Shown: in pieces, positions 46,871 to 64,000 of the stretch
Layout: the number at the start of each line of letters is the position of its first letter
Position numbering within the stretch: the stretch's first letter is position 1
Source: a phage
Strand: one strand, 5' to 3'
NCBI GenBank assembly: GCA_009015555.1
Contig: GCA_009015555.1_3613.1
DNA length: 64,000 bases
Program-made: the position numbers and the translations under genes
The notes under the pieces: generated by a model
What the model was told of the DNA's origin: nothing
The model's input: only the letters and a program-made list of their open reading frames with translations
The model's database searches: none

Positions 46871-48109
46871 ATGCAGCAGACTTACAAACGTACTGACCAA
46901 ACCATGTTTAAGAAACGAATCAGTATCCGACAGATGGAAGATCTGATCCGCCTTGGTGCCCGTATCGGTAAAACCACTTTCTTCTTCGGTGGTGCAGGTC
47001 TCGGTAAGTCCCAAAAAGTGTTGCAGGTAGCCAACAACATGTTCCCCCACCGCATCGGGGACAACCTGTGTGACGTTCGCCTGTCCGACAAAGAGCCGCA
47101 GGATATTGCAGGTATCCCGGTCCCGGTAACCTATTTCGATCCGGTTCAGGGCAAAGAAGTTACCCGTACTGTGTACGCATGTCCGAGCTTCTGGCCTACA
47201 GACCCGAACTGGGAAGGTATCGTATTCCTGGATGAACTGCCGAACGCAATGCTGGGCACTCAGCACTCTGCGTATCAGGTTATTCTGGACCACGTTGCAG
47301 GTGACCACCGCTTCCCGAAAGGTTGTGTGTTCGTTGGTGCAGGTAACCGTGACACCGATAACGCAGGCACCACCGAAATGCCTGGGCCGCTGGTTAACCG
47401 TATGATCATGGCAGAGGTTGAATACAATCTGGATGTGTGGATTGAGGACTTCGCAGTCCCATTCAAACTGCACCCACACGTAATCGGCTTCCTGAAGCAG
47501 TTCCCGGAGCATTTCTACACTGGTGACGTAGAGAAGCGCTCTACTCCGGTGTTCGCATCACCTCGTCAGTGGAAAACTGTTTCTGACATTCTGTACGATT
47601 ACGAAGTACAGAAGAATGAGTACATCACCGAGATCGCTATCGCGGGTTCTGTTGGTGAAGGTCTGGAAACTGCGGTTCTTGCGTACCACTTACGTGCCGC
47701 TGAACTGCCGAAAGTTGAAGACATCTTCTCCGGTAAGGTGAAAAAGCACGAACTGTCTCGTGAGAAGAACGACCTGGTTTACGTACTGGCACAGACCTGC
47801 TTACGTCAACTGGAGAAAGAAGTGATGGACAATGGCATGAATGATGAGATCTTCATCGAACGTGCTTCTAACTTCCTAAACTTCATGTTCAACAACTATT
47901 ACAAGGCGAACAAAGACACCATGATCGCGCTGATGATTGGTATCTTCCGTGCATCCAATACGGATCAACAGGCGATCCTGAGCCTGAACCCGAAACGTAC
48001 CAAGATGATCCCGGCGCTGCGTAAGAACTGCGAAGCTGTTATGACTATCGTAATGGAGTATCAGACTCGTTATGGTAAAATCATGGAGGATTTCAACGTT
48101 AAAGGTTGA
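46871..48109 (+). CDS. MoxR-type AAA+ ATPase
   Basis: GAGGAG RBS. Walker A GGAGLGKSQ; Walker B VFLDELPNA. Confidence 0.8.
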   Translation: MQQTYKRTDQTMFKKRISIRQMEDLIRLGARIGKTTFFFGGAGLGKSQKVLQVANNMFPHRIGDNLCDVRLSDKEPQDIAGIPVPVTYFDPVQGKEVTRTVYACPSFWPTDPNWEGIVFLDELPNAMLGTQHSAYQVILDHVAGDHRFPKGCVFVGAGNRDTDNAGTTEMPGPLVNRMIMAEVEYNLDVWIEDFAVPFKLHPHVIGFLKQFPEHFYTGDVEKRSTPVFASPRQWKTVSDILYDYEVQKNEYITEIAIAGSVGEGLETAVLAYHLRAAELPKVEDIFSGKVKKHELSREKNDLVYVLAQTCLRQLEKEVMDNGMNDEIFIERASNFLNFMFNNYYKANKDTMIALMIGIFRASNTDQQAILSLNPKRTKMIPALRKNCEAVMTIVMEYQTRYGKIMEDFNVKG

Positions 48110-48133
48110 CATCACAATATAAGCTGATAGAAT
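48106..48133 (+). promoter_or_regulatory. candidate promoter ahead of the VWA gene
   Basis: TTGACA-16-TAGAAT overlapping the MoxR stop codon. Confidence 0.4.
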
Positions 48134-48167
48134 GGGGTCATCTTTCGAGATGGCCCCTTTTTCTTTT
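48134..48167 (+). terminator. terminator-like hairpin / leader stem-loop
   Basis: GGGGTCATC-TTTCGA-GATGGCCCC followed by TTTTTCTTTT, between the MoxR stop and the VWA RBS. Confidence 0.6.
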
Positions 48168-48176
48168 GGAGGAAAT

Positions 48177-54424: not shown

Positions 54425-55264
54425 ATGTCCTCATTTGATGCAGCTTTTCTACACGGTGTCGCTGATTATTCCAAGGGCACCAGTCCAACGCCCGAGATCC
54501 CCGATTGGAAAAATTTACAGCGGCGGCTGTCTGATGTCCAAGATACTTTGCTGAAGGAATGGCAGAGCAATGATTCTGTAGCTTCCGACATCAAAGACAT
54601 AGCCAGTGATTTTGACTTTGATTCTTCTCTTGAGGATTTTGTTTACAGGGCCAACGAAAAGATAGATACTTTGCACCGCGCTGTGCGTGATTCGTGTTAC
54701 GATCTGAAGATGAACTGGGACCCGGATGGAATGACCCGTGACCAGATGGTGACCTTTGTCGAAAACTTGAAGGACCAACTTGAAGAGTACCTACCACAAT
54801 CCCACATAATGAAAGATGTGGTTATGGGTTGGTACGGGTACAATGTGGCCCGGTTTGTTCAGGATTACCATGCACTGGGTCAAGCCTGGTTGTCATATAC
54901 CCACGATGATACGTACATGGGGGATCTGGAAGATTCCAAACTTGGAGACTTGACCATCAAGGCGTGTTCGAACGGCATCCTCCGATTATCCACCCAGTGG
55001 GTGCCAGGCTACCTGTACTTTACCAGTGATAATAAGATTATCCTTGGGGGTGAGAAGCACAGTCTTGCCATGAAAGTAGAAGAGTTCAGGACTTTCTTTG
55101 ATGACTGGAAGCGACCAACGGAAGAAGAGATTGCCCTGTTTGATGTCCTCAACCCTGGGGCCAACTGGTCTGTGTTCAGATACTTGAGGGATTACGAAGG
55201 GAAGAACTACATCTCGAACGTGAAACCGATCACATTGCAGGTGTCGGTTAGCACCAAGCTGTGA
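54425..55264 (+). CDS. hypothetical protein (279 aa), last gene before the repeat region
   Basis: Long ORF; no motif recognised. Confidence 0.6.
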   Translation: MSSFDAAFLHGVADYSKGTSPTPEIPDWKNLQRRLSDVQDTLLKEWQSNDSVASDIKDIASDFDFDSSLEDFVYRANEKIDTLHRAVRDSCYDLKMNWDPDGMTRDQMVTFVENLKDQLEEYLPQSHIMKDVVMGWYGYNVARFVQDYHALGQAWLSYTHDDTYMGDLEDSKLGDLTIKACSNGILRLSTQWVPGYLYFTSDNKIILGGEKHSLAMKVEEFRTFFDDWKRPTEEEIALFDVLNPGANWSVFRYLRDYEGKNYISNVKPITLQVSVSTKL

Positions 55265-55440
55265 TATTTGTGGGCCAAGGACGGCTCAGTTTTCAGATCG
55301 GATTTCGATTTGATATTTGCCTGTGATATTTGCGCCGATATTTGAAATCAGATTTCAATTCGAAATTCAATTTGAGATTTTATTTGAGATGGCCCGCCGG
55401 GCCGGGACTCAGATCAGATTCCTTTTTCAGATTTACTCAA
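55263..55440. repeat. cluster of short A/T-rich direct repeats (GATATTTG / GATTTCGA / ATTTGAGAT)
   Basis: gtGATATTTGtg ... GATTTCGATTTGATATTTGcctgtGATATTTGcgccGATATTTGaaatcaGATTTCAATTCGAAATTCAATTTGAGATTTTATTTGAGAT. Confidence 0.7.
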
Positions 55441-55564
55441 CAATGTACCAGCACACCCGGCCCCGGTCAAGGGCTAATGTACCATAAATGTTACATTAAG
55501 GGGCTTATGCACCACTAACGGCACATATACGTTACAATACGGGAGTTATCTCTGGTCAAAAAAT

Positions 55565-55735
55565 TTGAGGGTCTCGATCGGTTTTTCGTTTTGCCGATCG
55601 TATTCTCTGCCCGCCGGGCCGGACTGGGGTCTCGGTACAGAAAGCAGGGTCTCGATCGAAAACTCAATTTCGAGATCGTATTCTCGATACAGGTACAGGT
55701 CTCCGCCCGGGGTCTCGATCGAGATTTCATTTTCA
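55565..55735. repeat. three ~45-bp direct repeats GGGTCTCGATCG-N-CGTATTCTC
   Basis: GGGTCTCGATCG at 55569, 55647 and 55710, each followed 14-18 nt later by CGTATTCTC; GCCCGCCGGGCCGG blocks in between. Confidence 0.75.
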
Positions 55736-55769
55736 AAAACGTATTCTCAAAATCTATACAGAGGTGAAA

Positions 55770-55895
55770 ATCGAAATGAGAATTTTTATCATTCACGTTA
55801 GGCCCGAGGCGAAATGAGAATCGTTCTCATTTGCAAATTGAAATGATAATTATTCGCATTTACGTAGTTGAATGAGAATCATTCTCATCTCCAGA
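55770..55895. repeat. four palindromic repeats GAAATGAGAAT-n-ATTCTCATTT
   Basis: Four copies, two of them perfect palindromes (AAATGAGAA-TCG-TTCTCATTT; ATGAGAAT-C-ATTCTCAT). Confidence 0.75.
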
Positions 55896-56164
55896 ATAGC
55901 GGGCACCCCCGGTGATTGTCTCCGGGTCATTTCTCCCCGCTATGTGTATAATATAGCCCAACCCCGGCCCGGTTGCAAGCGTCTTTACAGTTCTTTACAA
56001 AACTATTTTGGACGAACTACCGGCGATCCACCTTCCGACCTGGCCCCGGTGCCCGGTACGTTAGCCCCGCCTTTTCGCCGTGGGGTGGCGTCTCCTCTCC
56101 TGTATGTGTACATTATGGACTAGCCCCGCCGGGCCGTCAATACCAAAACGAAAATAAATTTTTC

Positions 56165-56193
56165 TTGACCTGCCAGGCAAGCCGGGCCACAAT
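56165..56193 (+). promoter_or_regulatory. sigma70-type promoter
   Basis: TTGACC-17-CACAAT ahead of ORF 56223. Confidence 0.55.
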
Positions 56194-56222
56194 GCAGGCA
56201 CACCAACAAAGGAGATCGACCG

Positions 56223-56555
56223 ATGCAACAGACGAAATATTTTATTGAAGGTAACGCCGCCGCCCACGCCGGGCAGATCCGCGCCTGCCGCTACAATAAA
56301 GAAGAGAACCGCCGCGAATGGTTCGCCGGGTTCGATAGTGTGGATCGTGGTTTCGCCGTGTTTAAGATCCTGCCTGGTCCCGGCGCTGTTAAGCTGGCGG
56401 ACCTGGACCCGGTTTATATTGGTGGCGTCAAGCAATGCCAGGATCGCGCCGTCACACTGCAACAGGCGGACCGCGCCGGGCAATATGTGATCTATGATAT
56501 GACAACGGGCAAGCCGTACCAGGAAAGCACAAAATTAAATTACAAAAAGATTTAA
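56223..56555 (+). CDS. small early-type protein (110 aa)
   Basis: AAGGAG RBS; own promoter; no homolog recognised. Confidence 0.6.
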   Translation: MQQTKYFIEGNAAAHAGQIRACRYNKEENRREWFAGFDSVDRGFAVFKILPGPGAVKLADLDPVYIGGVKQCQDRAVTLQQADRAGQYVIYDMTTGKPYQESTKLNYKKI

Positions 56556-56563
56556 AATAATGC

Positions 56564-56592
56564 TTGACGGGGCCAGCGATAGGCCCCATAAT
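56564..56592 (+). promoter_or_regulatory. sigma70 promoter with GGGGCC...GGCCCC spacer hairpin
   Basis: TTGACG-gGGGCCagcgataGGCCC-CATAAT. Confidence 0.75.
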
Positions 56593-56647
56593 TCACCACA
56601 TAGCGACGCACACCGCGCCGCGCTAACAGAAGAGAGAGACCGTTATC

Positions 56648-57088
56648 ATGTTACATTCAATCAATAAAGAACAACGCCTTTACGTTATGCCTTGCGGGAA
56701 TGGCTTTACCTGCTACGGGTTCGACGTGTTAGACAAACGCGCCCGCGCCTTGTCTGCCTGGTACTTTGAACAGAATCCGCAAGCTATCGCACAGATCCCC
56801 GCCCGGATTGGCACTAAAAAACATTTTAAAGCCTGCCAGGCAGTGATCCAGCAGGTGGGCCGCTATTGCACCCATAAGGGCATTAAATGCCCGGTTGAAT
56901 TGTCGCCACAATTAAAAGGCCTGGAGGGTCGCCGGGTTGAGGTTGTCACCATGTACGGCGAAAAGCGCCGCTTTATTGTGGGCCGTTCTACTGGCTGGCT
57001 GGTCACTCATCTGGAGATCCCCCGCGCCAACAGTAGCGGCGGTATGAGCGCCGAAAAACAATACAAATCTGTAACCGTCATAAAATAA
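56648..57088 (+). CDS. small early-type protein (146 aa)
   Basis: Own promoter and a conserved leader shared with ORFs 60528 and 63616. Confidence 0.6.
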   Translation: MLHSINKEQRLYVMPCGNGFTCYGFDVLDKRARALSAWYFEQNPQAIAQIPARIGTKKHFKACQAVIQQVGRYCTHKGIKCPVELSPQLKGLEGRRVEVVTMYGEKRRFIVGRSTGWLVTHLEIPRANSSGGMSAEKQYKSVTVIK

Positions 57089-57101
57089 TTTAAAAATAGT
57101 A

Positions 57102-57130
57102 TTGACACCGGGGCCACCTGGCCCCATACT
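57102..57130 (+). promoter_or_regulatory. sigma70 promoter with spacer hairpin
   Basis: TTGACA-ccGGGGCCacctGGCCC-CATACT. Confidence 0.7.
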
Positions 57131-57180
57131 ACAAACAAGCCCGGCAAATGGTGCCCGGCAAAATCAGAGAGTAAAAGAAA

Positions 57181-57402
57181 ATGGCTAAAGTAACCTATAA
57201 AAAATCACGTGGCATTTCCTCTGTTAACCTGGCGGCGGTTGTAACCCTGCCCGCATACCGTACCCGCGACGAGGCCCGCGCCGTTGCCAGTAAGATCCGC
57301 GCCGCTGGCGTGACCCCGACAACGCCAACCAAAACGGCGGACGGCTGGCGCGTTACCGCAAAGCATAACGGCGGCACACTTTCCCGCAACACTCACCGCT
57401 AA
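57181..57402 (+). CDS. small early-type protein (73 aa)
   Basis: Purine-rich RBS; own promoter. Confidence 0.55.
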   Translation: MAKVTYKKSRGISSVNLAAVVTLPAYRTRDEARAVASKIRAAGVTPTTPTKTADGWRVTAKHNGGTLSRNTHR

Positions 57403-57409
57403 CCAATTG

Positions 57410-57434
57410 CAGGCCCCCGCCGGGGGCCTTTCGT
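57410..57434 (+). terminator. GC hairpin with weak T-tract (possible terminator or processing site)
   Basis: GGCCCCC-GCCG-GGGGCC followed by TTTCGTGT. Confidence 0.4.
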
Positions 57435-57448
57435 GTGGAGTCAGTACC

Positions 57449-57793
57449 ATGACCAAACAGATCCCCGCTGTCCAGATCACGCCGCTTTTCCGTTGCCATA
57501 TCTTTTATGACTGTAATGATCTTGCGGGGCAATGGATCGGCGATACCGATCAACAATATGATTTCCCGGAATGGGACGAACTAAACCGCCGTGTAAGCAA
57601 CGCCGCACACAATGCCGATCCTGATAGCCTGGCGGACGTGGAACACTTCCCCGGCGGGGCCGCTTGCTTTCCTTATATTGAGATCACCGCGCCAACGTGG
57701 GCGCTATGTAAAGCGATGAGCGACGCCGTGATCCGTTGCATCCTGGACAATGGCGGGATCGTCGAACCAAAAGACAACGGAATAAATATTTAA
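57449..57793 (+). CDS. small early-type protein (114 aa)
   Basis: GGAG RBS; no promoter of its own. Confidence 0.5.
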   Translation: MTKQIPAVQITPLFRCHIFYDCNDLAGQWIGDTDQQYDFPEWDELNRRVSNAAHNADPDSLADVEHFPGGAACFPYIEITAPTWALCKAMSDAVIRCILDNGGIVEPKDNGINI

Positions 57794-57812
57794 ATTATTT
57801 TGCTTTTGGGGG

Positions 57813-57841
57813 TTGACGCCCGGCGGCGCTTCCCCCATAAT
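57813..57841 (+). promoter_or_regulatory. sigma70 promoter with GC-rich spacer
   Basis: TTGACG-17-CATAAT, flanked by GGGGG / CCCCC. Confidence 0.7.
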
Positions 57842-57894
57842 ACACCACATAGGGCGACGGAATAACCCGCCGCCAAAAACCAAAAGGTAACAGT

Positions 57895-58134
57895 ATGCAA
57901 ACCGTAATGATTAGCCACCCGGATCACGCTTCAGATTTCTACGCACCGATCTACGCCCCGCTTGAATGGCAACGCCAGGGCCTGCAAAAAACCGCCACGG
58001 GCTATGGCACCAAGATCCCCACGTCCTATATGTTGGACTATCAAGGCAAGCGCCGCCGGATCTATGTTGACCAGTACAGCAACGCCGGGCACACTTACAT
58101 AATGATCAAAGGCGAAAAAATTACAGTTTGCTAA
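57895..58134 (+). CDS. small early-type protein (79 aa)
   Basis: AAAAGG RBS; own promoter. Confidence 0.55.
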   Translation: MQTVMISHPDHASDFYAPIYAPLEWQRQGLQKTATGYGTKIPTSYMLDYQGKRRRIYVDQYSNAGHTYIMIKGEKITVC

Positions 58135-58143
58135 AAATAATTG

Positions 58144-58172
58144 TTGACCGGGGGCCGGGTAGGCCCCATAAT
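58144..58172 (+). promoter_or_regulatory. sigma70 promoter with spacer hairpin
   Basis: TTGACC-gGGGGCCgggtaGGCCC-CATAAT. Confidence 0.75.
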
Positions 58173-58212
58173 ACCAGACATACCAAACAGACAAGAAAAC
58201 GAGGCTTACAAA

Positions 58213-58443
58213 ATGAATCTGACTACTATCGGCGCTAACCAAACCATGATCACCCTGGCCGACGGCTCACAGGTTTTCTTTTCCTACAATACCCCGGTTG
58301 CGGCATACCTGCCCGGCGTGGGCTATGTAGTGACCGCCAAAAAGCACAGCGCCACCACGTCAAAACATGTTAATGCTTGGGCTGGCAAAGGTTGCGACAC
58401 CCGCCCACAGGAATTTTTTGATAATCTCATTAAATCCGCTTGA
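58213..58443 (+). CDS. small early-type protein (76 aa)
   Basis: GAGG RBS; track start 58141 lies inside the promoter. Confidence 0.55.
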   Translation: MNLTTIGANQTMITLADGSQVFFSYNTPVAAYLPGVGYVVTAKKHSATTSKHVNAWAGKGCDTRPQEFFDNLIKSA

Positions 58444-58469
58444 CGTTTGAATTATGCCGGGGTTATAAT
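58440..58469 (+). promoter_or_regulatory. sigma70 promoter with -10 in a hairpin loop
   Basis: TTGACG-18-TATAAT; GCCGGGG-ttataat-TCCCGGC. Confidence 0.7.
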
Positions 58470-58519
58470 TCCCGGCATAGACAAGCGAAAGCAAACAACC
58501 AAACCGAAAGGATCACACA

Positions 58520-58900
58520 ATGAACATTATCAACACTGTAAACGCCGCCGACATCAAAGAAATTTCCGTAACTGGTAAACGTTGGTTCCAGCGTAGCTAC
58601 GGCAACACTTATCACAGCGTAAGCCTGGGGGCGCTGGTATCCGTTGAAGTGGCGGACCGCTTAGGCGCTAACAAGTACGGCAACAAAAGCGGCGACGTGT
58701 GGATCGACCTGGCTTATGTTGGTTTCGCCTATGGTTATGATCGCGGGTTCGAACAAACCGCATTAAGCGCGATGATCGAGGCGGTGAAGGATGCCCCGGC
58801 GGCGTGGCGTGGTATGTCCTACGCTTGCCAGGCGGCGGCGGATCTCGGGGTTGTCTACACTGATAACGTTTATGATGTTAGCCGCAAAAAAGATTTATAA
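58520..58900 (+). CDS. small early-type protein (126 aa)
   Basis: AAAGGA RBS; GYDRGFEQTAL segment loosely resembles GYNREDAAFQEAI in ORF 59264. Confidence 0.6.
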   Translation: MNIINTVNAADIKEISVTGKRWFQRSYGNTYHSVSLGALVSVEVADRLGANKYGNKSGDVWIDLAYVGFAYGYDRGFEQTALSAMIEAVKDAPAAWRGMSYACQAAADLGVVYTDNVYDVSRKKDL

Positions 58901-58906
58901 TTTTGG

Positions 58907-58936
58907 TTGACACGGGGCCGGGTTAGGCCCCATAAT
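58907..58936 (+). promoter_or_regulatory. sigma70 promoter with spacer hairpin
   Basis: TTGACA-cGGGGCCgggttaGGCCC-CATAAT. Confidence 0.75.
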
Positions 58937-58968
58937 ACCCCCACACCAACAGAAAAGAGATTGACACC

Positions 58969-59178
58969 ATGATCAACGAACAGCAAGTAAACGACGTTAA
59001 ACATGAGGCTTACCAGGTGGCGATCCGTAGTGGTTCCCGCGCCGCCTTCAATCTGGTTATTGAGTTGTACCCTGAACAGGCGGAAAATATTTTAATGCAG
59101 GTTTCCGTATTACTGGAAGCAACAAAGCACACCAAATTAAGCGCCGGGATCGATAAGCTGGCAAAAAGTTTAAAATAG
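58969..59178 (+). CDS. small early-type protein (69 aa)
   Basis: AAGAGA RBS; own promoter. Confidence 0.55.
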   Translation: MINEQQVNDVKHEAYQVAIRSGSRAAFNLVIELYPEQAENILMQVSVLLEATKHTKLSAGIDKLAKSLK

Positions 59179-59181
59179 TTG

Positions 59182-59211
59182 TTGACTCTTACCCCGTCCC
59201 GCTGGCATAAT
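59182..59211 (+). promoter_or_regulatory. sigma70 promoter with -10 in a hairpin loop
   Basis: TTGACT-18-CATAAT; GTCCCGCT-ggcataat-AGCGGGAC. Confidence 0.7.
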
Positions 59212-59263
59212 AGCGGGACTGATTAAGAGAAACACCACAAACCAAACGAAGAGAGAAAACATT

Positions 59264-59650
59264 ATGAACGCTACTTACGATTTTTCCAACATGGTTGTAA
59301 CTTCTGGCGACCTGGGCAAGGCCCGTAACCAAAACAATTTTTACAAGGCCGTTCACCTGGTCGGGCTGGTAGACAATGAGATCAAAGATCTGGCGGAGGT
59401 CCGCTTCTACGGCACCGGGAAAACTAACACGGCGATCCTTTGGATTCACTCCCCGATCCTGGGTCTGTATGGTTCGGAGTTTGGCAAGGCTGGCGGCTAT
59501 GGCTATAATCGCGAAGATGCAGCATTTCAGGAGGCGATCCGCAAGATGGGGGTTAAGGGTGACGGATACCATACGCCCCGCGATTTTTTCGAGGCCCTTG
59601 CTAAATATCTTGGGGTTGCTGTATACTCTGTTATTGAATCCCATGCTTAA
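59264..59650 (+). CDS. small early-type protein (128 aa)
   Basis: AAGAGAGAAA RBS; own promoter. Confidence 0.6.
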   Translation: MNATYDFSNMVVTSGDLGKARNQNNFYKAVHLVGLVDNEIKDLAEVRFYGTGKTNTAILWIHSPILGLYGSEFGKAGGYGYNREDAAFQEAIRKMGVKGDGYHTPRDFFEALAKYLGVAVYSVIESHA

Positions 59651-59659
59651 TGGTGTATA

Positions 59660-59971
59660 ATGACAATCGTAACTCTGATTTGTTTAGCACTGGCGGCGCT
59701 TTATTGCGTCGCCACTCACAAAGCCGCACTATGGCGAAAGGGTCAAAAAATGTACGGTTATTTTGAATACGAGTACAAAGGGGAGAAGGGATCAAGCCGG
59801 GACTATGGCGCAATGTGTGAGATCGATATGGTTGGCGCTATGAACTACCGCCAGGAGTTGGGCGCGGTGATCACTTATGAGGTTTACGACTCCTCAGAAG
59901 AGAAGATCGGAGAAATAATCGATCAACGTTACTACATGGAACAACAGCAAAACAAACGCCGGAGAAGATGA
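59660..59971 (+). CDS. hypothetical protein with N-terminal hydrophobic segment (start uncertain)
   Basis: Track ORF; alternative start at MYGYFEYEY; no clear promoter. Confidence 0.4.
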   Translation: MTIVTLICLALAALYCVATHKAALWRKGQKMYGYFEYEYKGEKGSSRDYGAMCEIDMVGAMNYRQELGAVITYEVYDSSEEKIGEIIDQRYYMEQQQNKRRRR

Positions 59972-59973
59972 GA

Positions 59974-60108
59974 ATGATTCACACTAACATTAACCGCGAT
60001 AAACAACCGCGCCGCGCCCGTCTCTCATACGCTGAAGCAGGCGAGCGCCTGCAACGTGAGAAGGCCAACAAACAACAGCGCCGTAAAACGCGCTATAACT
60101 GGGAGTAA
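59974..60108 (+). CDS. tiny Arg/Lys-rich protein (44 aa)
   Basis: Hand-translated MIHTNINRDKQPRRARLSYAEAGERLQREKANKQQRRKTRYNWE; GGAGAAGATGAGA before the ATG. Confidence 0.35.
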   Translation: MIHTNINRDKQPRRARLSYAEAGERLQREKANKQQRRKTRYNWE

Positions 60109-60143
60109 GCGCCCCGGCATGGAAACACCAGGCCAAACAGTTT

Positions 60144-60170
60144 AAACCGCACAGGGGGCCGCTTAGGCCC
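60144..60170 (+). terminator. rho-independent terminator
   Basis: GGGGGCC-GCTTA-GGCCCC followed by TTATTTTTT. Confidence 0.75.
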
Positions 60171-60184
60171 CTTATTTTTTATCT

Positions 60185-60424
60185 ATGGGGTACACAATGC
60201 AAAACCTTTTAACCTTAACAGATTTTATCCGGGCTATGGGGTCCCGTCCGATGGGGTTTAGCGCCCTTTACCTGGTAACCGATGGCAAAGGATACCGCGC
60301 CACCTGCAAAGCGCTTGCCGCCGTTGCGGCCCGCGAAGGGGTCAAGATCTCCACGGGTCAAGCCTTGGTAGTTGACCCGGCGACATTGGCAACGGCGGAG
60401 GCGATCCGGGTCACTGTAAAATAA
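60185..60424 (+). CDS. small early-type protein (75-79 aa)
   Basis: ATG at 60185 or 60197; no promoter of its own. Confidence 0.5.
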   Translation: MGYTMQNLLTLTDFIRAMGSRPMGFSALYLVTDGKGYRATCKALAAVAAREGVKISTGQALVVDPATLATAEAIRVTVK

Positions 60425-60448
60425 TTTAAAATATTTTCATCCTGGGGC

Positions 60449-60477
60449 TTGACGTCCGGCCCCGGTTCCCCCATAAT
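60449..60477 (+). promoter_or_regulatory. sigma70 promoter with GC-rich spacer
   Basis: TTGACG-tccGGCCCCggttcccc-CATAAT. Confidence 0.75.
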
Positions 60478-60527
60478 CTAACCCATAGCGACGCACACCG
60501 CGCCGCACTAACAGAAGAGAGACCGTT

Positions 60528-60962
60528 ATGACTTCCCCAATTTTCCGTATCAAATCAGGTTTATCCGTTTACGCACTGGCTTGCGGCTATATCCAAGAGA
60601 TCGACACAAAGATCACCGGGAAAAATATCCGGGTACAGCTTTTAATGGAACACGGCGCTTTTCACGTCAAGGCACATGATTTTGATGACGTGGGCCGGAT
60701 CGAGTGGGTTGTTGAAGATCAGATCGGCGACGCCCGCACACAATGGAAAGCGCTTGTTAATCAGCTTTTCGGGGAAGTTATCCGCACAATCAAAAAAGAT
60801 AAGCGCTACACCGTAACCCGTGAATTTTCCGGCGACCCTTGCGGGGCCTTGTATGTTACCCGTTTTTGTGGGGAATTTGTAAGCCGTGCCGACACAATCC
60901 CCGGCGCATGGGTAAAAGCCGCCGAACACAACGCCGAAAGAATGAAAAATTATCAAAAATAA
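60528..60962 (+). CDS. small early-type protein (144 aa)
   Basis: Shares the conserved leader with ORFs 56648 and 63616. Confidence 0.6.
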   Translation: MTSPIFRIKSGLSVYALACGYIQEIDTKITGKNIRVQLLMEHGAFHVKAHDFDDVGRIEWVVEDQIGDARTQWKALVNQLFGEVIRTIKKDKRYTVTREFSGDPCGALYVTRFCGEFVSRADTIPGAWVKAAEHNAERMKNYQK

Positions 60963-60964
60963 TT

Positions 60965-60993
60965 GTTGACCGGGGCCGGGTTAGGCCCCATAA
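60965..60993 (+). promoter_or_regulatory. sigma70 promoter with spacer hairpin
   Basis: TTGACC-GGGGCCgggttaGGCCC-CATAAT. Confidence 0.75.
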
Positions 60994-61025
60994 TACCCCC
61001 AGACAAACAAACCGGAGTTAGACCA

Positions 61026-61178
61026 ATGAAACAATATCTTGTAAACATCCCTGGCGTGGCTGGCCCGTTGAAAGTTTATGGCTATGATGAGCAGGACGCA
61101 AGAAAGCGCCTACGTGATCGGGAAGGTTTCGGATCACGCCTCCCACGTGGCACAAAATTTTATTTGCAAAACGCTTGA
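61026..61178 (+). CDS. tiny basic protein (50 aa)
   Basis: GGAG RBS; track start 60963 lies inside the promoter. Confidence 0.45.
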   Translation: MKQYLVNIPGVAGPLKVYGYDEQDARKRLRDREGFGSRLPRGTKFYLQNA

Positions 61179-61203
61179 CGTGTGGTTATGCCGTCGCCTA
61201 TAA
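61174..61203 (+). promoter_or_regulatory. sigma70 promoter with -10 in a hairpin loop
   Basis: TTGACG-18-TATAAT; ATGCCGTC-gcctataat-GACGGCAT. Confidence 0.7.
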
Positions 61204-61257
61204 TGACGGCATAGACAAACGAAAGCAACACCAGACAACCAAACGAGGGTTAAAATT

Positions 61258-61515
61258 ATGTTTGAAGTATTCGCCGGAATGTGTTTTTATGCCGCCGCCG
61301 CTTTAAAACAGTGTGATGATTACACCGTTGAAGCATACGACGATCAGTTAACTTGCGAGATCGTCGCCAACGGCTACCGCCAGGACCCGCGCTGGATTAA
61401 TCCGGCTTGTATCCCTGGGCCGGAAGTTGAAGCAATGCCGGAAGGTGAGCCGCTATTAGAACCGATCCCGGCGGCTAATCACTTGAACGTAAACCCGGCG
61501 CAAAAAGAGTATTAA
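61258..61515 (+). CDS. small early-type acidic protein (85 aa)
   Basis: GAGGG RBS; own promoter. Confidence 0.55.
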   Translation: MFEVFAGMCFYAAAALKQCDDYTVEAYDDQLTCEIVANGYRQDPRWINPACIPGPEVEAMPEGEPLLEPIPAANHLNVNPAQKEY

Positions 61516-61521
61516 AAGCGC

Positions 61522-61551
61522 TTGACGCCGGGACGGTTCCCGGCTTATAAT
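61522..61551 (+). promoter_or_regulatory. sigma70 promoter, CCGGGA...TCCCGG spacer palindrome
   Basis: TTGACG-CCGGGAcggtTCCCGGC-TTATAAT. Confidence 0.8.
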
Positions 61552-61588
61552 CTCAGACATACCAAACAGGCAAATGAGGCCGCAAATC

Positions 61589-61795
61589 ATGACACGTTAT
61601 TTTGTTACTCGCAATGTTTACCGCTTAGAAAATGGCAACGTTTACCGCTGGAGTGGGGCGCGTGGTGGCTGGTTGCACCGTGACGGCTTTACCCCTTCAG
61701 ATCTCACCGATGGGACCGTGATCGGCGCGGTTGAGGTATCAGAAGAGGAAGCAAACCGCCGGATCTCTGAATTGTTAAAAGGCGGTGCAAAATGA
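61589..61795 (+). CDS. small early-type protein (68 aa)
   Basis: GAGG RBS; own promoter. Confidence 0.5.
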   Translation: MTRYFVTRNVYRLENGNVYRWSGARGGWLHRDGFTPSDLTDGTVIGAVEVSEEEANRRISELLKGGAK

Positions 61796-61971
61796 AATCA
61801 TCTTTACTTTTCGCCCTGGTTGACATCGTGATCGGCAATGGTTGCGGGCAACATACATTTATTGCTAACCGCCCCTATCCGCTAAAGTCATTGCAGGCTG
61901 ACGCCCGATTAACAGCGGCACAGATCCGCCGCTACTTTCGGGAACCACACCCGGCAAAGAATGCAAAATAA
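61792..61971 (+). CDS. small protein (59 aa), translationally coupled
   Basis: Hand-translated MKSSLLFALVDIVIGNGCGQHTF..; ATGA overlap. Confidence 0.4.
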   Translation: MKSSLLFALVDIVIGNGCGQHTFIANRPYPLKSLQADARLTAAQIRRYFREPHPAKNAK

Positions 61972-61974
61972 TTG

Positions 61975-62004
61975 TTGACGCCGGGCACCGTCCCGGCTTA
62001 CAAT
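61975..62004 (+). promoter_or_regulatory. sigma70 promoter, GCCGGG...CCCGGC spacer palindrome
   Basis: TTGACG-CCGGGCaccgTCCCGGC-TTACAAT. Confidence 0.75.
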
Positions 62005-62034
62005 GACCCCACACAAACAAACGAGGCTTTAAAC

Positions 62035-62340
62035 ATGCAACAGGCTAACACTCTTTTCATTCTGGCAAACGTAGCGGATCACGTCGTGGCGTCGCTGTCC
62101 AACGTAGCGGGCACCGTCCAGATCATTTGTCGTCATATGGATGACAAAGCGCCGAACCGCTTACAAATCAACGTAGACCGCGACGGGAAAGAATTTGTGA
62201 TCTCTTATGACGCTATCTATAATGGCAACCGGATCACGCAAGCCAAAAGCCAACCGATCCCCGCCGATTTTATCCAGCAAGTGATCGCCGAAATCGTAAA
62301 CGACACGATCCCAGCGGGGGCGCTGTATGAATCCGCATAA
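62035..62340 (+). CDS. small early-type protein (101 aa)
   Basis: GAGG RBS; track start 61972 lies inside the promoter. Confidence 0.55.
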   Translation: MQQANTLFILANVADHVVASLSNVAGTVQIICRHMDDKAPNRLQINVDRDGKEFVISYDAIYNGNRITQAKSQPIPADFIQQVIAEIVNDTIPAGALYESA

Positions 62341-62482
62341 ACTCTTAATCACCAGTTACCCCAGCAAGGCGGATCGCCGTGAAACTTTGGACCGCTTAAC
62401 GCGCTACTATCAGGAGGCCGGGCACAATAAGACAACCGCCCGCGCCCTGGCTAAAAAGCGTTTGCGATTTGGTAAAAATTAG
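62327..62482 (+). CDS. tiny basic protein (51 aa)
   Basis: Hand-translated MNPHKLLITSYPSKADRRETLDRLTRYYQEAGHNKTTARALAKKRLRFGKN; overlaps the upstream gene by 14 nt. Confidence 0.4.
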   Translation: MNPHKLLITSYPSKADRRETLDRLTRYYQEAGHNKTTARALAKKRLRFGKN

Positions 62483-62483
62483 C

Positions 62484-62513
62484 TTGACGCCGGGAACCGT
62501 CCCGGCTTATAAT
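62484..62513 (+). promoter_or_regulatory. sigma70 promoter, GCCGGG...CCCGGC spacer palindrome
   Basis: TTGACG-CCGGGAaccgTCCCGGC-TTATAAT. Confidence 0.8.
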
Positions 62514-62564
62514 CTCTCACATAGCGCGGGGGATGGTCCCCGCATTATCTAAGAGGTTATGAAT

Positions 62565-62717
62565 ATGTTTACTTTGATGACTTGGGAACACGAAACAAGC
62601 TCCCCGATCCGCCGCACTTTTGAAGACCTATGCGCCGCTTATCGCCTGGCGCAAGGCGGTTATTATAAGGCCCAAATCATTGATGAAAACAATGTGATCA
62701 TGTACGAATTTAAATGA
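62565..62717 (+). CDS. tiny protein (50 aa)
   Basis: Hand-translated MFTLMTWEHETSSPIRRTFEDLCAAYRLAQGGYYKAQIIDENNVIMYEFK; AAGAGG RBS 8 nt upstream. Confidence 0.45.
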   Translation: MFTLMTWEHETSSPIRRTFEDLCAAYRLAQGGYYKAQIIDENNVIMYEFK

Positions 62718-62746
62718 TTGACATCCGGCCCGAAAGGGCCGATAAT
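62718..62746 (+). promoter_or_regulatory. sigma70 promoter with spacer hairpin
   Basis: TTGACA-tccGGCCCgaaaGGGCC-GATAAT. Confidence 0.7.
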
Positions 62747-62777
62747 GACCCACACCAACAAAAGAGAGACCGTAAAA

Positions 62778-62984
62778 ATGATTACAATGATTCTGCAAAA
62801 GTCCCGCCTGATTGATGTTACTGTTACCCTGTCCGCTTGCGGTGAATCATCCCGCCGGGCCGATCATTACCAGGTTACCGCTGTAAGCGACAACGGCGCG
62901 ATCCTTCTCTCTGAAGCGACCCCCGCGCTACATGAGGCATTTTTGACCTATTCGAAGTGGAAAGGGCCGGAAGAAATAAAATAA
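62778..62984 (+). CDS. small early-type protein (68 aa)
   Basis: Track start 62718 lies inside the promoter; start taken at MITMILQ. Confidence 0.5.
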   Translation: MITMILQKSRLIDVTVTLSACGESSRRADHYQVTAVSDNGAILLSEATPALHEAFLTYSKWKGPEEIK

Positions 62985-62991
62985 AAAGTAG

Positions 62992-63020
62992 TTGACGGCG
63001 GGGCCGATAGGCCCCATAAT
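62992..63020 (+). promoter_or_regulatory. sigma70 promoter with spacer hairpin
   Basis: TTGACG-gcGGGGCCgataGGCCC-CATAAT. Confidence 0.75.
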
Positions 63021-63052
63021 ACCCCCACACCAAACGAAATAGGATTCACAAA

Positions 63053-63307
63053 ATGTTAAAATTCATCAAATCACTTTTCACCCGCACCGCCCCGGCTTGC
63101 AAGTTGCCACCGCTGGAGGCGCAAGGCGTGATCGCTCGCAAAGTCTCAGAACTGTTTATCATTTCATTGGTTCACAATGGCGGCGACTGTTACGAAATCA
63201 TCGAAATGGGCCGCTACACCAACACCGGATCAAGCCGTGTCCGCTACGGTGAACACCGCGCCCGGAATCATTTTGATTCTGTATGCTGTATGGTTGGTGC
63301 AAAATGA
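63053..63307 (+). CDS. small early-type protein (84 aa)
   Basis: AGGA RBS; own promoter. Confidence 0.55.
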   Translation: MLKFIKSLFTRTAPACKLPPLEAQGVIARKVSELFIISLVHNGGDCYEIIEMGRYTNTGSSRVRYGEHRARNHFDSVCCMVGAK

Positions 63308-63516
63308 TCGCGTTTACCTTTGAGCGCCTGCCGGACACCTCCCCCCGCTGGGGGGAGTGTGAAGAGGTTGTGATCCTTGCCCGCGATGAGGCGCAAGCCT
63401 GGCAGATGTTAGGGGAATATGTAGCGGCGCACACGTTGCCAGCCTGGAAGCTGGCAGAACAAAAGCCAGCCGCGCCCGGCGTGATCTTTTTCACGTCCTA
63501 CACGTTAGGCGTTTAA
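63304..63516 (+). CDS. small protein (70 aa), translationally coupled
   Basis: ATGA overlap with the upstream stop. Confidence 0.5.
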   Translation: MIAFTFERLPDTSPRWGECEEVVILARDEAQAWQMLGEYVAAHTLPAWKLAEQKPAAPGVIFFTSYTLGV

Positions 63517-63533
63517 TCTTTACAAAACTATTG

Positions 63534-63563
63534 TTGACGCCGGGCACCGTCCCGGCCTATAAT
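63534..63563 (+). promoter_or_regulatory. sigma70 promoter, GCCGGG...CCCGGC spacer palindrome
   Basis: TTGACG-CCGGGCaccgTCCCGGC-CTATAAT, followed by the conserved leader. Confidence 0.8.
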
Positions 63564-63615
63564 TCACCACATAGCGACGCACACCGCGCCGCGCTAACAG
63601 AAGAGAGATCGTAAA

Positions 63616-63984
63616 ATGAGCAAATACACCCCGTGGGAACCAATGTATAAAATCAGCCTGGTTGAGTGCAGCAAAAACGAACTGGATGGAATTGTCCGCG
63701 CCGCTACCGCCGTGATCCGGGGTCTTAACTTCAAACACCTGAGATTCAAAGAAGTAAAACAGATTTTCGAGATGCCGGATCACAAGGCCGCTTCCCGCTT
63801 GGGTCTTACTGTAACCTCGCAAGGGCTTTACAAAGATCACGACCTGAAAGGGCCGCATGTTTGGCTTTTGGCTTGCGCCGTGGGCCGTACCATCGCCGAC
63901 ACCATAAAGAGCATGAAAGCGTTACGCGATGCCGCAAAGGCCCGCCGGGCCGAACTGGAAACAATGATCAGCACTAAATGCTAA
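63616..63984 (+). CDS. small early-type protein (122 aa)
   Basis: Shares the conserved leader with ORFs 56648 and 60528. Confidence 0.6.
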   Translation: MSKYTPWEPMYKISLVECSKNELDGIVRAATAVIRGLNFKHLRFKEVKQIFEMPDHKAASRLGLTVTSQGLYKDHDLKGPHVWLLACAVGRTIADTIKSMKALRDAAKARRAELETMISTKC

Positions 63985-63991
63985 AAATAAA

Positions 63992-64000
63992 GTTGACGCC
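63992..64000 (+). promoter_or_regulatory. start of another promoter of the same family, cut by the window edge
   Basis: AAAATAAAGTTGACGCC at the last bases, matching the -35 context of the family. Confidence 0.4.

What the first reader, a model, noticed from the sequence alone, without database searches (positions are those of the whole stretch)
56592..56647. Near-identical ~45-nt 5' leader shared by three unrelated genes
The leader (A)TTCACCACATAGCGACGCACACCGCGCCGC(G/A)CTAACAGAAGAGAGA precedes ORFs 56648, 60528 and 63616 (copies at 56592-56647, 60478-60527, 63563-63615). The promoters upstream belong to different spacer families and the three proteins show no obvious similarity, so the leader itself appears to be the conserved unit: a possible riboregulatory element, protein-binding site or RNase target coordinating their translation.
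Basis: seen in the sequence. Interest (0 to 1): 0.6.

Follow-up and report, generated by a model that had tools for sequence, protein, structure and literature searches.

The report
Swappable hairpin leader on phage early genes
Three unrelated early genes of this rV5-like phage share a short leader with a small hairpin predicted to sit at the start of the mRNA; it is one version of an interchangeable promoter-leader cassette that related phages swap between genes, and it most likely stabilises the mRNA rather than forming a special three-gene control circuit.

Summary
The window is a Certrevirus (rV5-like myovirus, 96% identical to Cronobacter phage PBES 02). Copies 1 and 3 of the leader are identical over 45 nt. 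Copy 2 differs at 5 positions. Each copy follows a consensus sigma-70 promoter with a different spacer and precedes an unrelated ORFan.

The leader is modular: predicted start CA(+1)TAG, a 19-nt GC hairpin at about +4 to +22, a U-poor A/C-rich linker, a weak Shine-Dalgarno sequence, then ATG. The hairpin is supported by compensatory changes across alleles in 12 Certrevirus genomes, Salmonella phage SSBI34 and T1-like siphoviruses.

The same gene carries different hairpin alleles in sibling phages, and the same allele precedes unrelated genes. Window and PBES 02 differ at 17 positions in 63000-64000, and 11 of these fall in a 29-nt patch over the hairpin. This points to short-patch gene conversion. 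Gene replacements and deletions also break inside these cassettes, which match the PeSL cassettes of T4-like phages.

Most likely function, inferred and not shown: a 5'-terminal stem-loop that stabilises mRNA, like those of T7 gene 10 and ompA. A dedicated regulator binding site is not excluded. I rate it a new variant of a known kind, of moderate interest.

The parts
56564..56592 (+). Promoter of copy 1: -35 TTGACG (56564-56569), 17-nt GC-palindromic spacer GGGGCC..GGCCCC, -10 CATAAT (56587-56592). PeSL-type.
56599..56647 (+). Leader copy 1: CATAG with predicted start at A56600, hairpin, A/C-rich linker, SD-like AAGAGAGA (56630-56637), up to ATG 56648.
56603..56621 (+). Hairpin of copy 1 (allele A): GCG-A-CGC [ACACC] GCG-C-CGC. 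Six pairs plus one A.C opposition.
56648..57088 (+). ORF of 146 aa (phrog_10759, function unknown). Replaced by unrelated genes in CR3/CR8/CR9/DU_PP_I and P7_Pc, and absent in POP15/CB7.
60449..60477 (+). Promoter of copy 2 (TTGACG, spacer gtccggccccggttcccc, CATAAT).
60484..60527 (+). Leader copy 2. Hairpin at 60488-60506, G->A at 60507, SD-like sequence at 60515-60522.
60528..60962 (+). ORF of 144 aa (phrog_16510, function unknown).
63534..63563 (+). Promoter of copy 3 (TTGACG, spacer gccgggcaccgtcccggcc, TATAAT).
63570..63615 (+). Leader copy 3. Hairpin at 63574-63592, SD-like sequence at 63601-63608. The patch 63567-63595 holds 11 of the 17 differences from PBES 02 in 63000-64000.
63616..63984 (+). 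ORF of 122 aa (phrog_24107, function unknown).
57842..57894 (+). Fourth leader of the same build (allele B). CATAG at 57848-57852, hairpin GGCG-A-CGG [AATAAC] CCG-C-CGCC at 57853-57874, before ORF 57895. Promoter at 57813-57841.
62514..62558 (+). Fifth leader of the same build (allele E). CATAG at 62520-62524, hairpin GCGGGGG [ATGG] TCCCCGC at 62526-62543 with a + strand G.U pair, before the DUF7170 ORF. Promoter at 62484-62513.

Best explanation
The three copies are one allele of a modular transcribed leader. The leader belongs to PeSL-like promoter cassettes in the ORFan-rich early region of a Certrevirus.

Each cassette has this order:
- an AT-rich upstream stretch
- TTGAC (-35)
- a GC stem-loop in the spacer
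- (C/T)ATAAT (-10)
- a predicted start at the A of CATAG
- in a subset of gene positions, a 19-22-nt GC hairpin at about +4 to +22
- a U-poor A/C-rich linker, a weak SD and the ATG, 18-27 nt after the hairpin

Shown here:
- the anatomy
- conservation of the hairpin through compensatory changes
- its restriction to promoter-proximal, gene-sense positions
- its exchange between gene positions by short-patch recombination
- the location of gene replacement and deletion junctions inside the cassettes

Inferred: the hairpin sits at the 5' end of short early mRNAs. There it hinders 5'-end-dependent decay by RppH and RNase E, as the 5' stem-loops of T7 gene 10 and ompA do, and so raises the expression of whichever ORFan lies behind it.

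The near-identity of the three copies reflects recent gene conversion between cassettes. It does not indicate a shared regulatory need of these three genes.
For: Identity and context:
- The window is 96% identical to Cronobacter phage PBES 02/CR3.
- There are 30 promoter-like sites against 9.0 +/- 2.8 in shuffles, nearly all on the + strand. There are 16 promoter-leader units in 56165-63563.

Hairpin:
- The hairpin is predicted in all copies.
- On 19 distinct sequences, 86.5% of cells pair, against 68.8 +/- 2.5 in shuffles (0/500) and 16-56% when the partner is slid.
- Three of 7 pairs change on both sides (GC<->CG twice, GC<->AU). Pair 10-18 shows GC, AU, GU and A.C.
- Covariance model R1 finds 52 matches in 325 kb. 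All are on the + strand. The Certrevirus matches coincide with promoter-leader units; the weakest SSBI34 matches were not checked.
- The stem starts 10-11 nt after the -10 hexamer in 40 of 55 units, and ends 18-27 nt before the ATG.
- Leaders are 10% U against 21% for the region.

Modularity:
- The same gene carries alleles A, A', C or D in different phages. Allele A precedes at least six unrelated gene families.
- 11 of the 17 differences between window and PBES 02 in 63000-64000 lie in 63567-63595.
- Homology to CR3/CR8/CR9/DU_PP_I ends at 56661 and resumes at 57082. For P7_Pc it ends at 56637 and resumes at 57091.
- In DU_PP_I, leader A is fused to the next gene's RBS.

Breadth:
- The same module is present in SSBI34 (4 copies).
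- It occurs once per genome in roughly 95 T1-like phages, with a + strand G.U pair.

Precedent:
- PeSL description (PMC2839356).
- 5' secondary structures stabilise mRNA because RppH and RNase E need single-stranded 5' ends (PMC3997798).
- The T7 gene 10 5' stem-loop stabilises mRNA and raises expression (Mertens 1996, cited and tested in PMC6146998).
- The T7 phi10 transcript starts with GGGAGACC[ACAAC]GGUUUCCC. This is the same pentaloop as Certrevirus allele C.
Against: - No transcript data exist. The start site is predicted only from the -10 spacing and the CA rule, so '5'-terminal' is an inference.
- Three unpaired nucleotides may still admit RppH.
- The abundant alleles keep an A.C opposition on the mRNA strand. 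This makes the minus-strand version of the hairpin more stable (-11.4 against -6.9 kcal/mol). Simple selection for a stable mRNA hairpin does not predict that.
- The covariation rests on few independent events among related sequences, and the structure was derived from the same sequences.
- The constant position after CATAG could be shared descent of the cassette rather than selection.
- Only about a quarter to a third of early promoter units carry a hairpin, and nothing seen here explains which ones.
- Folding z-scores of whole leaders are modest (-0.6 to -2.6).
Confidence: 0.5

Rival explanations
1. The hairpin is an operator for a specific RNA-binding protein, phage or host. This could be a translational repressor, an antiterminator of the lambda N/boxB kind, or a stabilising binder. 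It would place a subset of early genes under common control.
For: - Stems covary while loops stay within A-Y-R-M-C for the main type.
- One non-Watson-Crick position is retained in most Certrevirus alleles.
- Gene positions with a hairpin keep a hairpin across 12 genomes, and positions without one stay without.
- The module is conserved in unrelated phage families that infect Enterobacteria.
- It shares the C[ACAAC]G loop with the T7 gene 10 stem-loop.
Against: - One genome carries three to four different hairpin types with unrelated stems and loops (ACACC, AATAAC, ACAAC, RTGG).
- Alleles A and C replace each other at the same gene between 96%-identical phages with no other change.
- Three of five loop positions vary.
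- I saw no boxA-like element, and the loop is not GNRA-like.
- T1-like phages have a single copy.
- No candidate binding protein was identified.
Confidence: 0.2
2. The inverted repeat matters at the DNA level, or not at all for expression. It would be a recombination-prone palindrome that travels with the cassette, like the GGGG..CCCC stem-loops of PeSLs. It would persist because cassettes that recombine spread.
For: - Breakpoints of replacements, deletions and an insertion lie in the cassettes.
- There is a sharp 29-nt conversion patch.
- The minus-strand hairpin is at least as stable as the plus-strand one.
- The PeSL authors proposed that stem-loops may be targets of recombination proteins (PMC2839356).
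Against: - The flanking conserved stretches (-10 to CATAG, and ACAAACAAAAGAGAG) suffice as homology. In DU_PP_I the junction lies in the linker, not in the hairpin.
- Compensatory changes, and G.U pairs on the mRNA strand in T1-like phages and in allele E, indicate selection on pairing.
- A GC-rich hairpin is kept inside the visibly AT-rich leader of the T1-like phages.
- The hairpin always lies between the start site and the RBS.
Confidence: 0.15
3. It is a transcription-level signal in the initially transcribed region: a pause or attenuation hairpin, or a palindromic DNA operator at +4 to +22 for a repressor that shuts off early promoters.
For: - The position just downstream of the start resembles that of lacO-type operators (my own knowledge).
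- Early promoters must be shut off later in infection.
Against: - No U-tract follows the hairpin. Terminator-like sites are not enriched (14 against 13.6 expected), and none coincides with a leader hairpin.
- The sequence after the hairpin lacks a pause consensus, by my reading of the sequence.
- Half-site sequences differ between alleles in one genome, while complementarity is what is kept. This argues against recognition of double-stranded DNA by one repressor.
Confidence: 0.08
4. The copies are remnants of a recent segmental duplication and have no significance of their own.
For: Copies 1 and 3 are 100% identical over 45 nt.
Against: - Similarity ends abruptly at the promoter spacer and a few bases past the shared SD-like AAGAGAGA.
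- Flanking genes are unrelated.
- The element is conserved with covariation across genera and families.
Confidence: 0.02

Closest known systems
PeSLs (promoter-early stem-loop cassettes) of T4-like phages RB49/phi1 (Arbiol et al. 2010, PMC2839356; Comeau et al. 2014, PMC4122927)
   Same: - Dense arrays of consensus sigma-70 early promoters with an AT-rich upstream stretch.
- A GC-rich stem-loop between -35 and -10, or straddling -10.
- An SD and start codon at the 3' end of the cassette.
- Location in an ORFan-rich variable region.
- Indel and replacement junctions between close relatives fall in the cassettes.
   Different: - The host phage is a Vequintavirinae member, not a T4-like phage. 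In the four papers that a full-text search for 'PeSL' with 'T4-type' and 'promoter' returned, none was about rV5-like phages.
- The feature under study is a second hairpin that lies after the predicted start site and is transcribed into the leader. That position is not among the five PeSL subclasses.
- Terminator activity and mini-circles were not tested here.
5'-terminal stem-loop mRNA stabilisers: T7 gene 10 leader stem-loop (Mertens et al. 1996) and ompA/papA 5' hairpins (Emory, Bouvet, Belasco 1992)
   Same: - A stable hairpin within a few nucleotides of the (predicted) 5' end.
- It lies upstream of the RBS and does not occlude it.
- Structure is kept while sequence changes.
- T7 phi10 RNA begins GGGAGACC[ACAAC]GGUUUCCC, with the same C[ACAAC]G loop as Certrevirus allele C and SSBI34.
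   Different: - The function is not demonstrated here and the start site is predicted only.
- The promoter is a host sigma-70 type rather than a T7 RNA polymerase type.
- About 3 unpaired 5' nucleotides precede the stem, where T7 has none.
- Most Certrevirus alleles carry an A.C opposition.
- The element is repeated and swapped among many genes.
Lambda-type nut sites (boxA + boxB) and other phage RNA hairpin operators
   Same: A small hairpin near the 5' end of phage early transcripts, with a covarying stem.
   Different: - No boxA-like sequence, and the loop is not GNRA-like.
- Each gene has its own promoter, so antitermination is not obviously needed.
- Several unrelated hairpin types coexist in one genome.
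- No N-like protein was identified (not searched).

Membership tests
PeSL mobile regulatory cassette | Consensus sigma-70 early promoter with an AT-rich region upstream of -35 | tested here: met
   TTGAC-N17/18-(C/T)ATAAT preceded by A/T-rich sequence at all three copies and at about 13 further units. Definition taken.
PeSL mobile regulatory cassette | G/C-rich stem-loop within or next to the promoter (between -35 and -10, overlapping a box, upstream, or just before the start site) | tested here: met
   Spacers GGGGCC..GGCCCC and GCCGGG..CCCGGC lie between -35 and -10. Other units have arms straddling -10.
PeSL mobile regulatory cassette | The repeated element in question (the leader hairpin) is itself the PeSL stem-loop | tested here: not met
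   The leader hairpin lies after the predicted start site (stem starts 10-11 nt after -10). It comes in addition to the spacer stem-loop. None of the five described PeSL subclasses has this position.
PeSL mobile regulatory cassette | Concentrated in a variable, ORFan-rich region, with indels and replacements between close relatives breaking in the cassettes | tested here: met
   All neighbouring CDSs are hypothetical. Junctions lie at 56637/56661 and 57082/57091. There is a CR8 insertion, POP15/CB7 and DU_PP_I deletions, and a 29-nt conversion patch.
PeSL mobile regulatory cassette | Stem-loop terminates upstream transcription; cassettes form mini-circles | not testable with these tools
   Needs reporter assays and inverse PCR on infected cells.
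5'-terminal stem-loop mRNA stabiliser (ompA / T7 gene 10 type) | Hairpin at or within a few nucleotides of the mRNA 5' end | tested here: inconclusive
   The stem starts 10-11 nt after the -10 hexamer in 40/55 units. That is +4 if transcription starts at the A of CATAG. No 5'-end data exist.
5'-terminal stem-loop mRNA stabiliser (ompA / T7 gene 10 type) | Structure rather than sequence is what is kept | tested here: met
   86.5% of cells paired against 68.8% in shuffles. Three pairs have changes on both sides. At least 7 hairpin alleles exist with different stems.
5'-terminal stem-loop mRNA stabiliser (ompA / T7 gene 10 type) | Does not sequester the ribosome binding site | tested here: met
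   The hairpin ends 18-27 nt before the start codon. Predicted folds leave the SD unpaired or only weakly paired.
5'-terminal stem-loop mRNA stabiliser (ompA / T7 gene 10 type) | Lengthens mRNA half-life in an RppH / RNase E 5'-end-dependent manner | not testable with these tools
   Needs rifampicin chase with hairpin mutants in wild-type, rppH and rne 5'-sensor mutant hosts.
Intrinsic terminator / attenuator | GC-rich hairpin followed directly by a U-tract | tested here: not met
   The hairpin is followed by ACAAACAAAAG or GCTAACAGAAG. No terminator-like site was called at any leader, and sites are not enriched overall (14 against 13.6).
Any Rfam family | Match to a curated covariance model | tested here: not met
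   cmscan of 55000-64000 up to E = 5 gave only a chance bantam hit at 55284-55379.
Lambda-type nut site | boxA consensus next to a boxB hairpin with a GNRA-like pentaloop | tested here: not met
   By reading the sequence. Loops are ACACC, ACAAC or AATAAC. No CGCTCTTA-like boxA is conserved on either side. The consensus is from my own knowledge.

The most novel reading that the evidence does not exclude
The hairpin leader (CATAG + 7-pair GC stem + A-Y-R-M-C pentaloop + A-rich linker) is a horizontally mobile RNA module. It is shared by unrelated virulent phages of Enterobacteria: several Vequintavirinae lineages and T1-like Drexlerviridae, and it is echoed by the T7 gene 10 stem-loop. In this reading it is recognised by one common host or phage factor. 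That would make it a new, undescribed class of phage 5'-UTR element that defines a co-regulated subset of early genes.
Probability: 0.15. Interest if true: 0.6.

Novelty: new variant of a known kind. Interest (0 to 1): 0.4.

Why it matters
If the reading is right, rV5-like phages build their early region from plug-in expression cassettes: promoter, embedded stem-loop and optional 5' hairpin leader. These cassettes both drive and shuffle ORFans. This extends the PeSL idea beyond T4-like phages.

It also adds a transcribed hairpin module that is exchanged in patches of about 30 nt, and that also occurs in T1-like phages.

Practical consequences:
- Several gene starts annotated across the leader look wrong.
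- The cassettes are compact natural parts (strong promoter plus stabilising leader) for expression in Enterobacteria.
- They give defined sites at which to look for recombination-driven gene turnover in therapeutic phage candidates against Cronobacter, Pectobacterium, Klebsiella and Enterobacter.

Tried and rejected
- Rfam scan of 55000-64000: no family.
- Pfam, PHROGs and PDB sequence searches of the three proteins: only function-unknown PHROGs, so no functional link between the genes.
- Terminator reading: rejected because no U-tract follows.
- Segmental duplication: rejected because the boundaries are sharp.
- Strand of function by the G.U against A.C test: inconclusive. Certrevirus alleles have A.C on the mRNA strand. 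T1-like copies and allele E have G.U on it.
- Degenerate scan of IMG/VR with ATAATNNNNNNCATAGGGCG: mostly chance matches. Model R1 confirmed only Certrevirus and three T1-like contigs.
- Exact scan for allele A in IMG/VR: Certrevirus-size contigs only.
- Search for cassettes on the minus strand of the loci: none with a hairpin leader.
- Literature: the rV5 paper and the phiTE paper list or mention promoters and terminators but say nothing on these leaders. A Vequintavirinae transcription-start search returned nothing relevant.
- ToxI / pseudo-ToxI link of phiTE: considered and dropped. I recall the 36-nt ToxI repeat as AU-rich and unrelated in sequence; this was not checked here.
- sigma-70 pause, NAD-capping consensus and boxA readings of CATAG and the linker: considered by reading the sequence against consensus sequences from memory, and dropped.

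Full report
**Observation.**

The 39-nt core CATAGCGACGCACACCGCGCCGC(G/A)CTAACAGAAGAGAGA occurs three times in the window, at 56599-56637, 60484-60522 and 63570-63608. All three are on the + strand. None was found in 100 shuffles even with three mismatches allowed.

Copies 1 and 3 are identical over 45 nt, from the first base after the -10 hexamer to the end of AAGAGAGA. Copy 2 differs at five positions, four of them between the -10 and CATAG.

Each copy starts directly after a TTGAC-N17/18-(C/T)ATAAT promoter, and the three spacers differ. Each runs to the ATG of ORFs 56648, 60528 and 63616.

The three proteins are unrelated. They fall in three function-unknown PHROGs and have no Pfam or PDB relatives.

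**What the window is.**

The region is 96% identical to Cronobacter phage PBES 02 and CR3, and 84-97% identical to other members of Certrevirus (Vequintavirinae, rV5-like myoviruses).

Positions 56165-63563 hold 16 promoter-leader-gene units, all on the + strand. Promoter-like sites number 30 against 9.0 +/- 2.8 in shuffles.

Nearly all promoters carry a GC-rich inverted repeat, either in the spacer (GGGGCC..GGCCCC, GCCGGG..CCCGGC) or straddling the -10. This matches the published description of PeSLs in the T4-like phages RB49 and phi1. PeSLs combine a sigma-70 consensus promoter, an AT-rich upstream region, and a stem-loop most often between -35 and -10 or overlapping -10, with an SD and start codon at the 3' end (PMC2839356).

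**Anatomy of the leader.**

CATAG sits six or seven bases after the -10, so the A is the expected start site. This is an inference from the usual 7-8-nt spacing and the pyrimidine-purine rule; no transcript data exist.

From the G of CATAG runs a 19-nt hairpin, GCG-A-CGC [ACACC] GCG-C-CGC. After it come a U-poor A/C-rich linker, AAGAGAGA and the ATG. Window leaders are 10% U against 21% for the region.

Two further window leaders have the same build with other hairpins:
- 57853-57874, GGCG-A-CGG [AATAAC] CCG-C-CGCC
- 62526-62543, GCGGGGG [ATGG] TCCCCGC

The remaining leaders lack a hairpin.

**Comparison across phages.**

I extracted every promoter-leader unit from the early regions of 11 other Certrevirus genomes and grouped them by downstream gene. 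Three points follow.

First, hairpin leaders occupy the same gene positions in all genomes, about a quarter to a third of units. The hairpin allele varies:
- A, as in the window
- A', with an A.A opposition
- A with loop ATACC or ACAAC
- B
- C, GGGCG-A-C [ACAAC/ACGAC] G-C-CGCCC
- D, GGG-C-GGC [ACACC] GCC-A-CCC
- a perfect GGGCGGC [AATGAC] GCCGCCC
- E

Second, the same gene has different alleles in sibling phages.
- The orthologue of 60528 carries A in the window, CR8, CR9, KaOmega, POP15 and P7_Pc. It carries C in PBES 02 and CR3, and D in phiTE and CB7.
- The orthologue of 63616 carries A only in the window and CR3, and C elsewhere.

Third, the same allele A precedes at least six unrelated gene families.

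**Structure support.**

In a gap-free alignment of 19 distinct sequences, the seven column pairs are standard pairs in 86.5% of cells. The figure is 68.8 +/- 2.5 in shuffles (0 of 500 reach it) and 16-56% when the partner is slid.

Three pairs change on both sides (GC<->CG twice, GC<->AU). One pair shows GC, AU, GU and A.C.

The caveats of that tool apply. The sequences are related, the independent events are few, and the structure came from the same sequences.

A covariance model built on the alignment found 52 matches in 325 kb of window plus loci. All are on the gene strand, and the Certrevirus matches coincide with the promoter-leader units. The weakest SSBI34 matches were not checked individually. 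In the window there are only the three copies (44-48 bits) and the allele-B leader (20 bits).

The stem begins 10-11 nt after the -10 in 40 of 55 units and ends 18-27 nt before the start codon. No U-tract follows the hairpin, and no terminator-like site is called there. Rfam has nothing.

**Why the copies are identical.**

Between the window and PBES 02, positions 63000-64000 differ at 17 sites. Eleven of these lie in 63567-63595, over the hairpin. The nearest other differences are 185 nt upstream and 290 nt downstream.

The window patch equals the leader of ORF 56648 base for base. This is the signature of short-patch gene conversion between cassettes, within a genome or between co-infecting phages.

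Larger events break in the same places:
- Homology to CR3, CR8, CR9 and DU_PP_I ends at 56661 and resumes at 57082, with an unrelated 147-aa gene in between.
- In P7_Pc, homology ends at 56637 and resumes at 57091, with a third gene in between.
- POP15 and CB7 lack the gene, and the promoter drives the next gene.
- CR8 has an extra ORF plus cassette, with the leader duplicated at the junction.
- DU_PP_I has leader A fused to the next gene's RBS inside ACAAACAAAAGAGAG.

This is what PeSLs are reported to do in T4-like phages (PMC2839356, PMC4122927).

It is not what the sequence shows.

**Wider distribution.**

Salmonella phage SSBI34, a lower-GC relative still unclassified below subfamily in Vequintavirinae, has four copies of CACATAG-GGCGAC[ACAAC]GTCGCCC-ACTAACAAAG before different genes. 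There the A.C of allele C is an A-U pair.

The model also hit three 48-53-kb contigs. These are T1-like siphoviruses (Shigella phage 2019SD1; Drexlerviridae, Tempevirinae).

About 95 such genomes carry one copy each of CATAAT, then 6-8 nt, then CACATAG-GGCGGC[ACGGC]GTCGCCC, an A-rich linker, AGGAG and ATG. It lies before a roughly 300-aa ORF near the polynucleotide kinase gene. BLAST joins it to Certrevirus allele C at 85-87% identity over 40 nt. In these phages the soft pair is G.U on the mRNA strand, and no consensus -35 is seen upstream.

The T7 phi10 transcript begins with GGGAGACC[ACAAC]GGUUUCCC, which has the same C[ACAAC]G loop. Whether that is coincidence I cannot tell.

**Mechanism.**

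The best-supported reading is a generic 5'-terminal stem-loop on short early mRNAs.

The supporting facts:
- Fixed proximity to the predicted 5' end.
- No overlap with the RBS.
- Conservation of pairing but not of sequence.
- Free exchange of alleles at one gene.
- Coexistence of several hairpin types in one genome.
- A U-poor single-stranded linker.

The precedents:
- RppH and RNase E need single-stranded 5' ends, which explains the known stabilising effect of 5' structures (PMC3997798; Emory 1992 and Bouvet and Belasco 1992 cited there).
- The T7 gene 10 5' stem-loop stabilises mRNA (Mertens 1996). It raised expression 1.5-3-fold and raised mRNA abundance when transplanted (PMC6146998).

Every functional step here is inferred, not shown.

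What does not fit:
- The commonest alleles keep an A.C opposition, which makes the minus-strand version of the hairpin more stable.
- Nothing seen here explains which genes have a hairpin.

Rivals are detailed in their own section: a specific RNA-binding regulator, a DNA-level recombination palindrome, a pause signal or DNA operator, and a plain duplication.

**Comparison with what is known, and novelty.**

The cassettes meet the sequence-level features of PeSLs. However, the repeated element itself, a transcribed hairpin after the start site, is not one of the described PeSL stem-loop positions.

It works most like the T7 gene 10 and ompA 5' stem-loops, but membership cannot be tested without 5' ends and half-lives.

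The rV5 and phiTE papers do not mention these leaders. A full-text search for 'PeSL' with 'T4-type' and 'promoter' returned four papers, none about rV5-like phages.

I file it as a new variant of a known kind. It is of moderate interest, mainly for the clean conversion patch and the unexpected sharing with T1-like phages.

Noticed in passing
L025 7590-7652 (Shigella phage 2019SD1); L135-L139 about 1500-1565: The same -10/CATAG/hairpin/A-rich/SD leader occurs once per genome in about 95 T1-like siphoviruses (Drexlerviridae, Tempevirinae). It lies before a roughly 300-aa ORF near pnk and has a G.U pair on the mRNA strand. No consensus -35 is seen upstream. It is shared with Certrevirus at 85-87% identity over 40 nt.
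   Followed up: partly
L140 35-55 (T7 phi10 transcript start): The T7 gene 10 5' stem-loop GGGAGACC[ACAAC]GGUUUCCC has the same C[ACAAC]G pentaloop as Certrevirus allele C and the SSBI34 hairpins. Coincidence or shared constraint is unknown.
   Followed up: partly
window 55265-56222: A non-coding region of about 950 nt. It holds iteron-like direct repeats (GGGTCTCGATCG.. at 55568, 55646 and 55709) and ATGAGAAT..ATTCTCAT palindromes (55772-55890). It is flanked by divergent promoters (minus strand 56140 to 56112; plus strand 56165-56193). It may be an origin or a regulatory region.
   Followed up: no
window 48106-48175: A promoter TTGACA-N16-TAGAAT is followed at once by GGGGTCATCTTTCGAGATGGCCCC and then TTTTTCTTTT. 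This is a promoter-proximal terminator-like hairpin before a gene starting MFDNIMSAEELE. It is conserved in CR3, CR8, KaOmega, F1M1E and P7_Pc.
   Followed up: no
window 56165-63563 (all early promoters): The promoters carry GC-rich inverted repeats between -35 and -10, or with arms straddling the -10 (for example 58457-58476 and 61192-61210). These are PeSL-type composite promoter / stem-loop motifs. The four papers returned by a full-text search for 'PeSL' do not describe them in rV5-like phages.
   Followed up: partly
window 56603-56621 and all allele A-D hairpins: Each Certrevirus allele keeps one A.C (or C.A, or A.A) opposition on the mRNA strand, so the minus-strand fold is more stable (-11.4 against -6.9 kcal/mol). 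This is unexplained.
   Followed up: partly
L005 9401-9919 (phiTE_081); L007 9062-9166 (F1M1E UNA02753): Annotated CDSs run across the promoter and leader hairpin. They are probably a mis-called start and a spurious small ORF.
   Followed up: no
window 60153-60182: The one canonical intrinsic terminator of the early region: AGGGGGCCGCTTAGGCCCCTT followed by ATTTTTTATC. It lies within the 59968-60108/60185 intergenic stretch.
   Followed up: no
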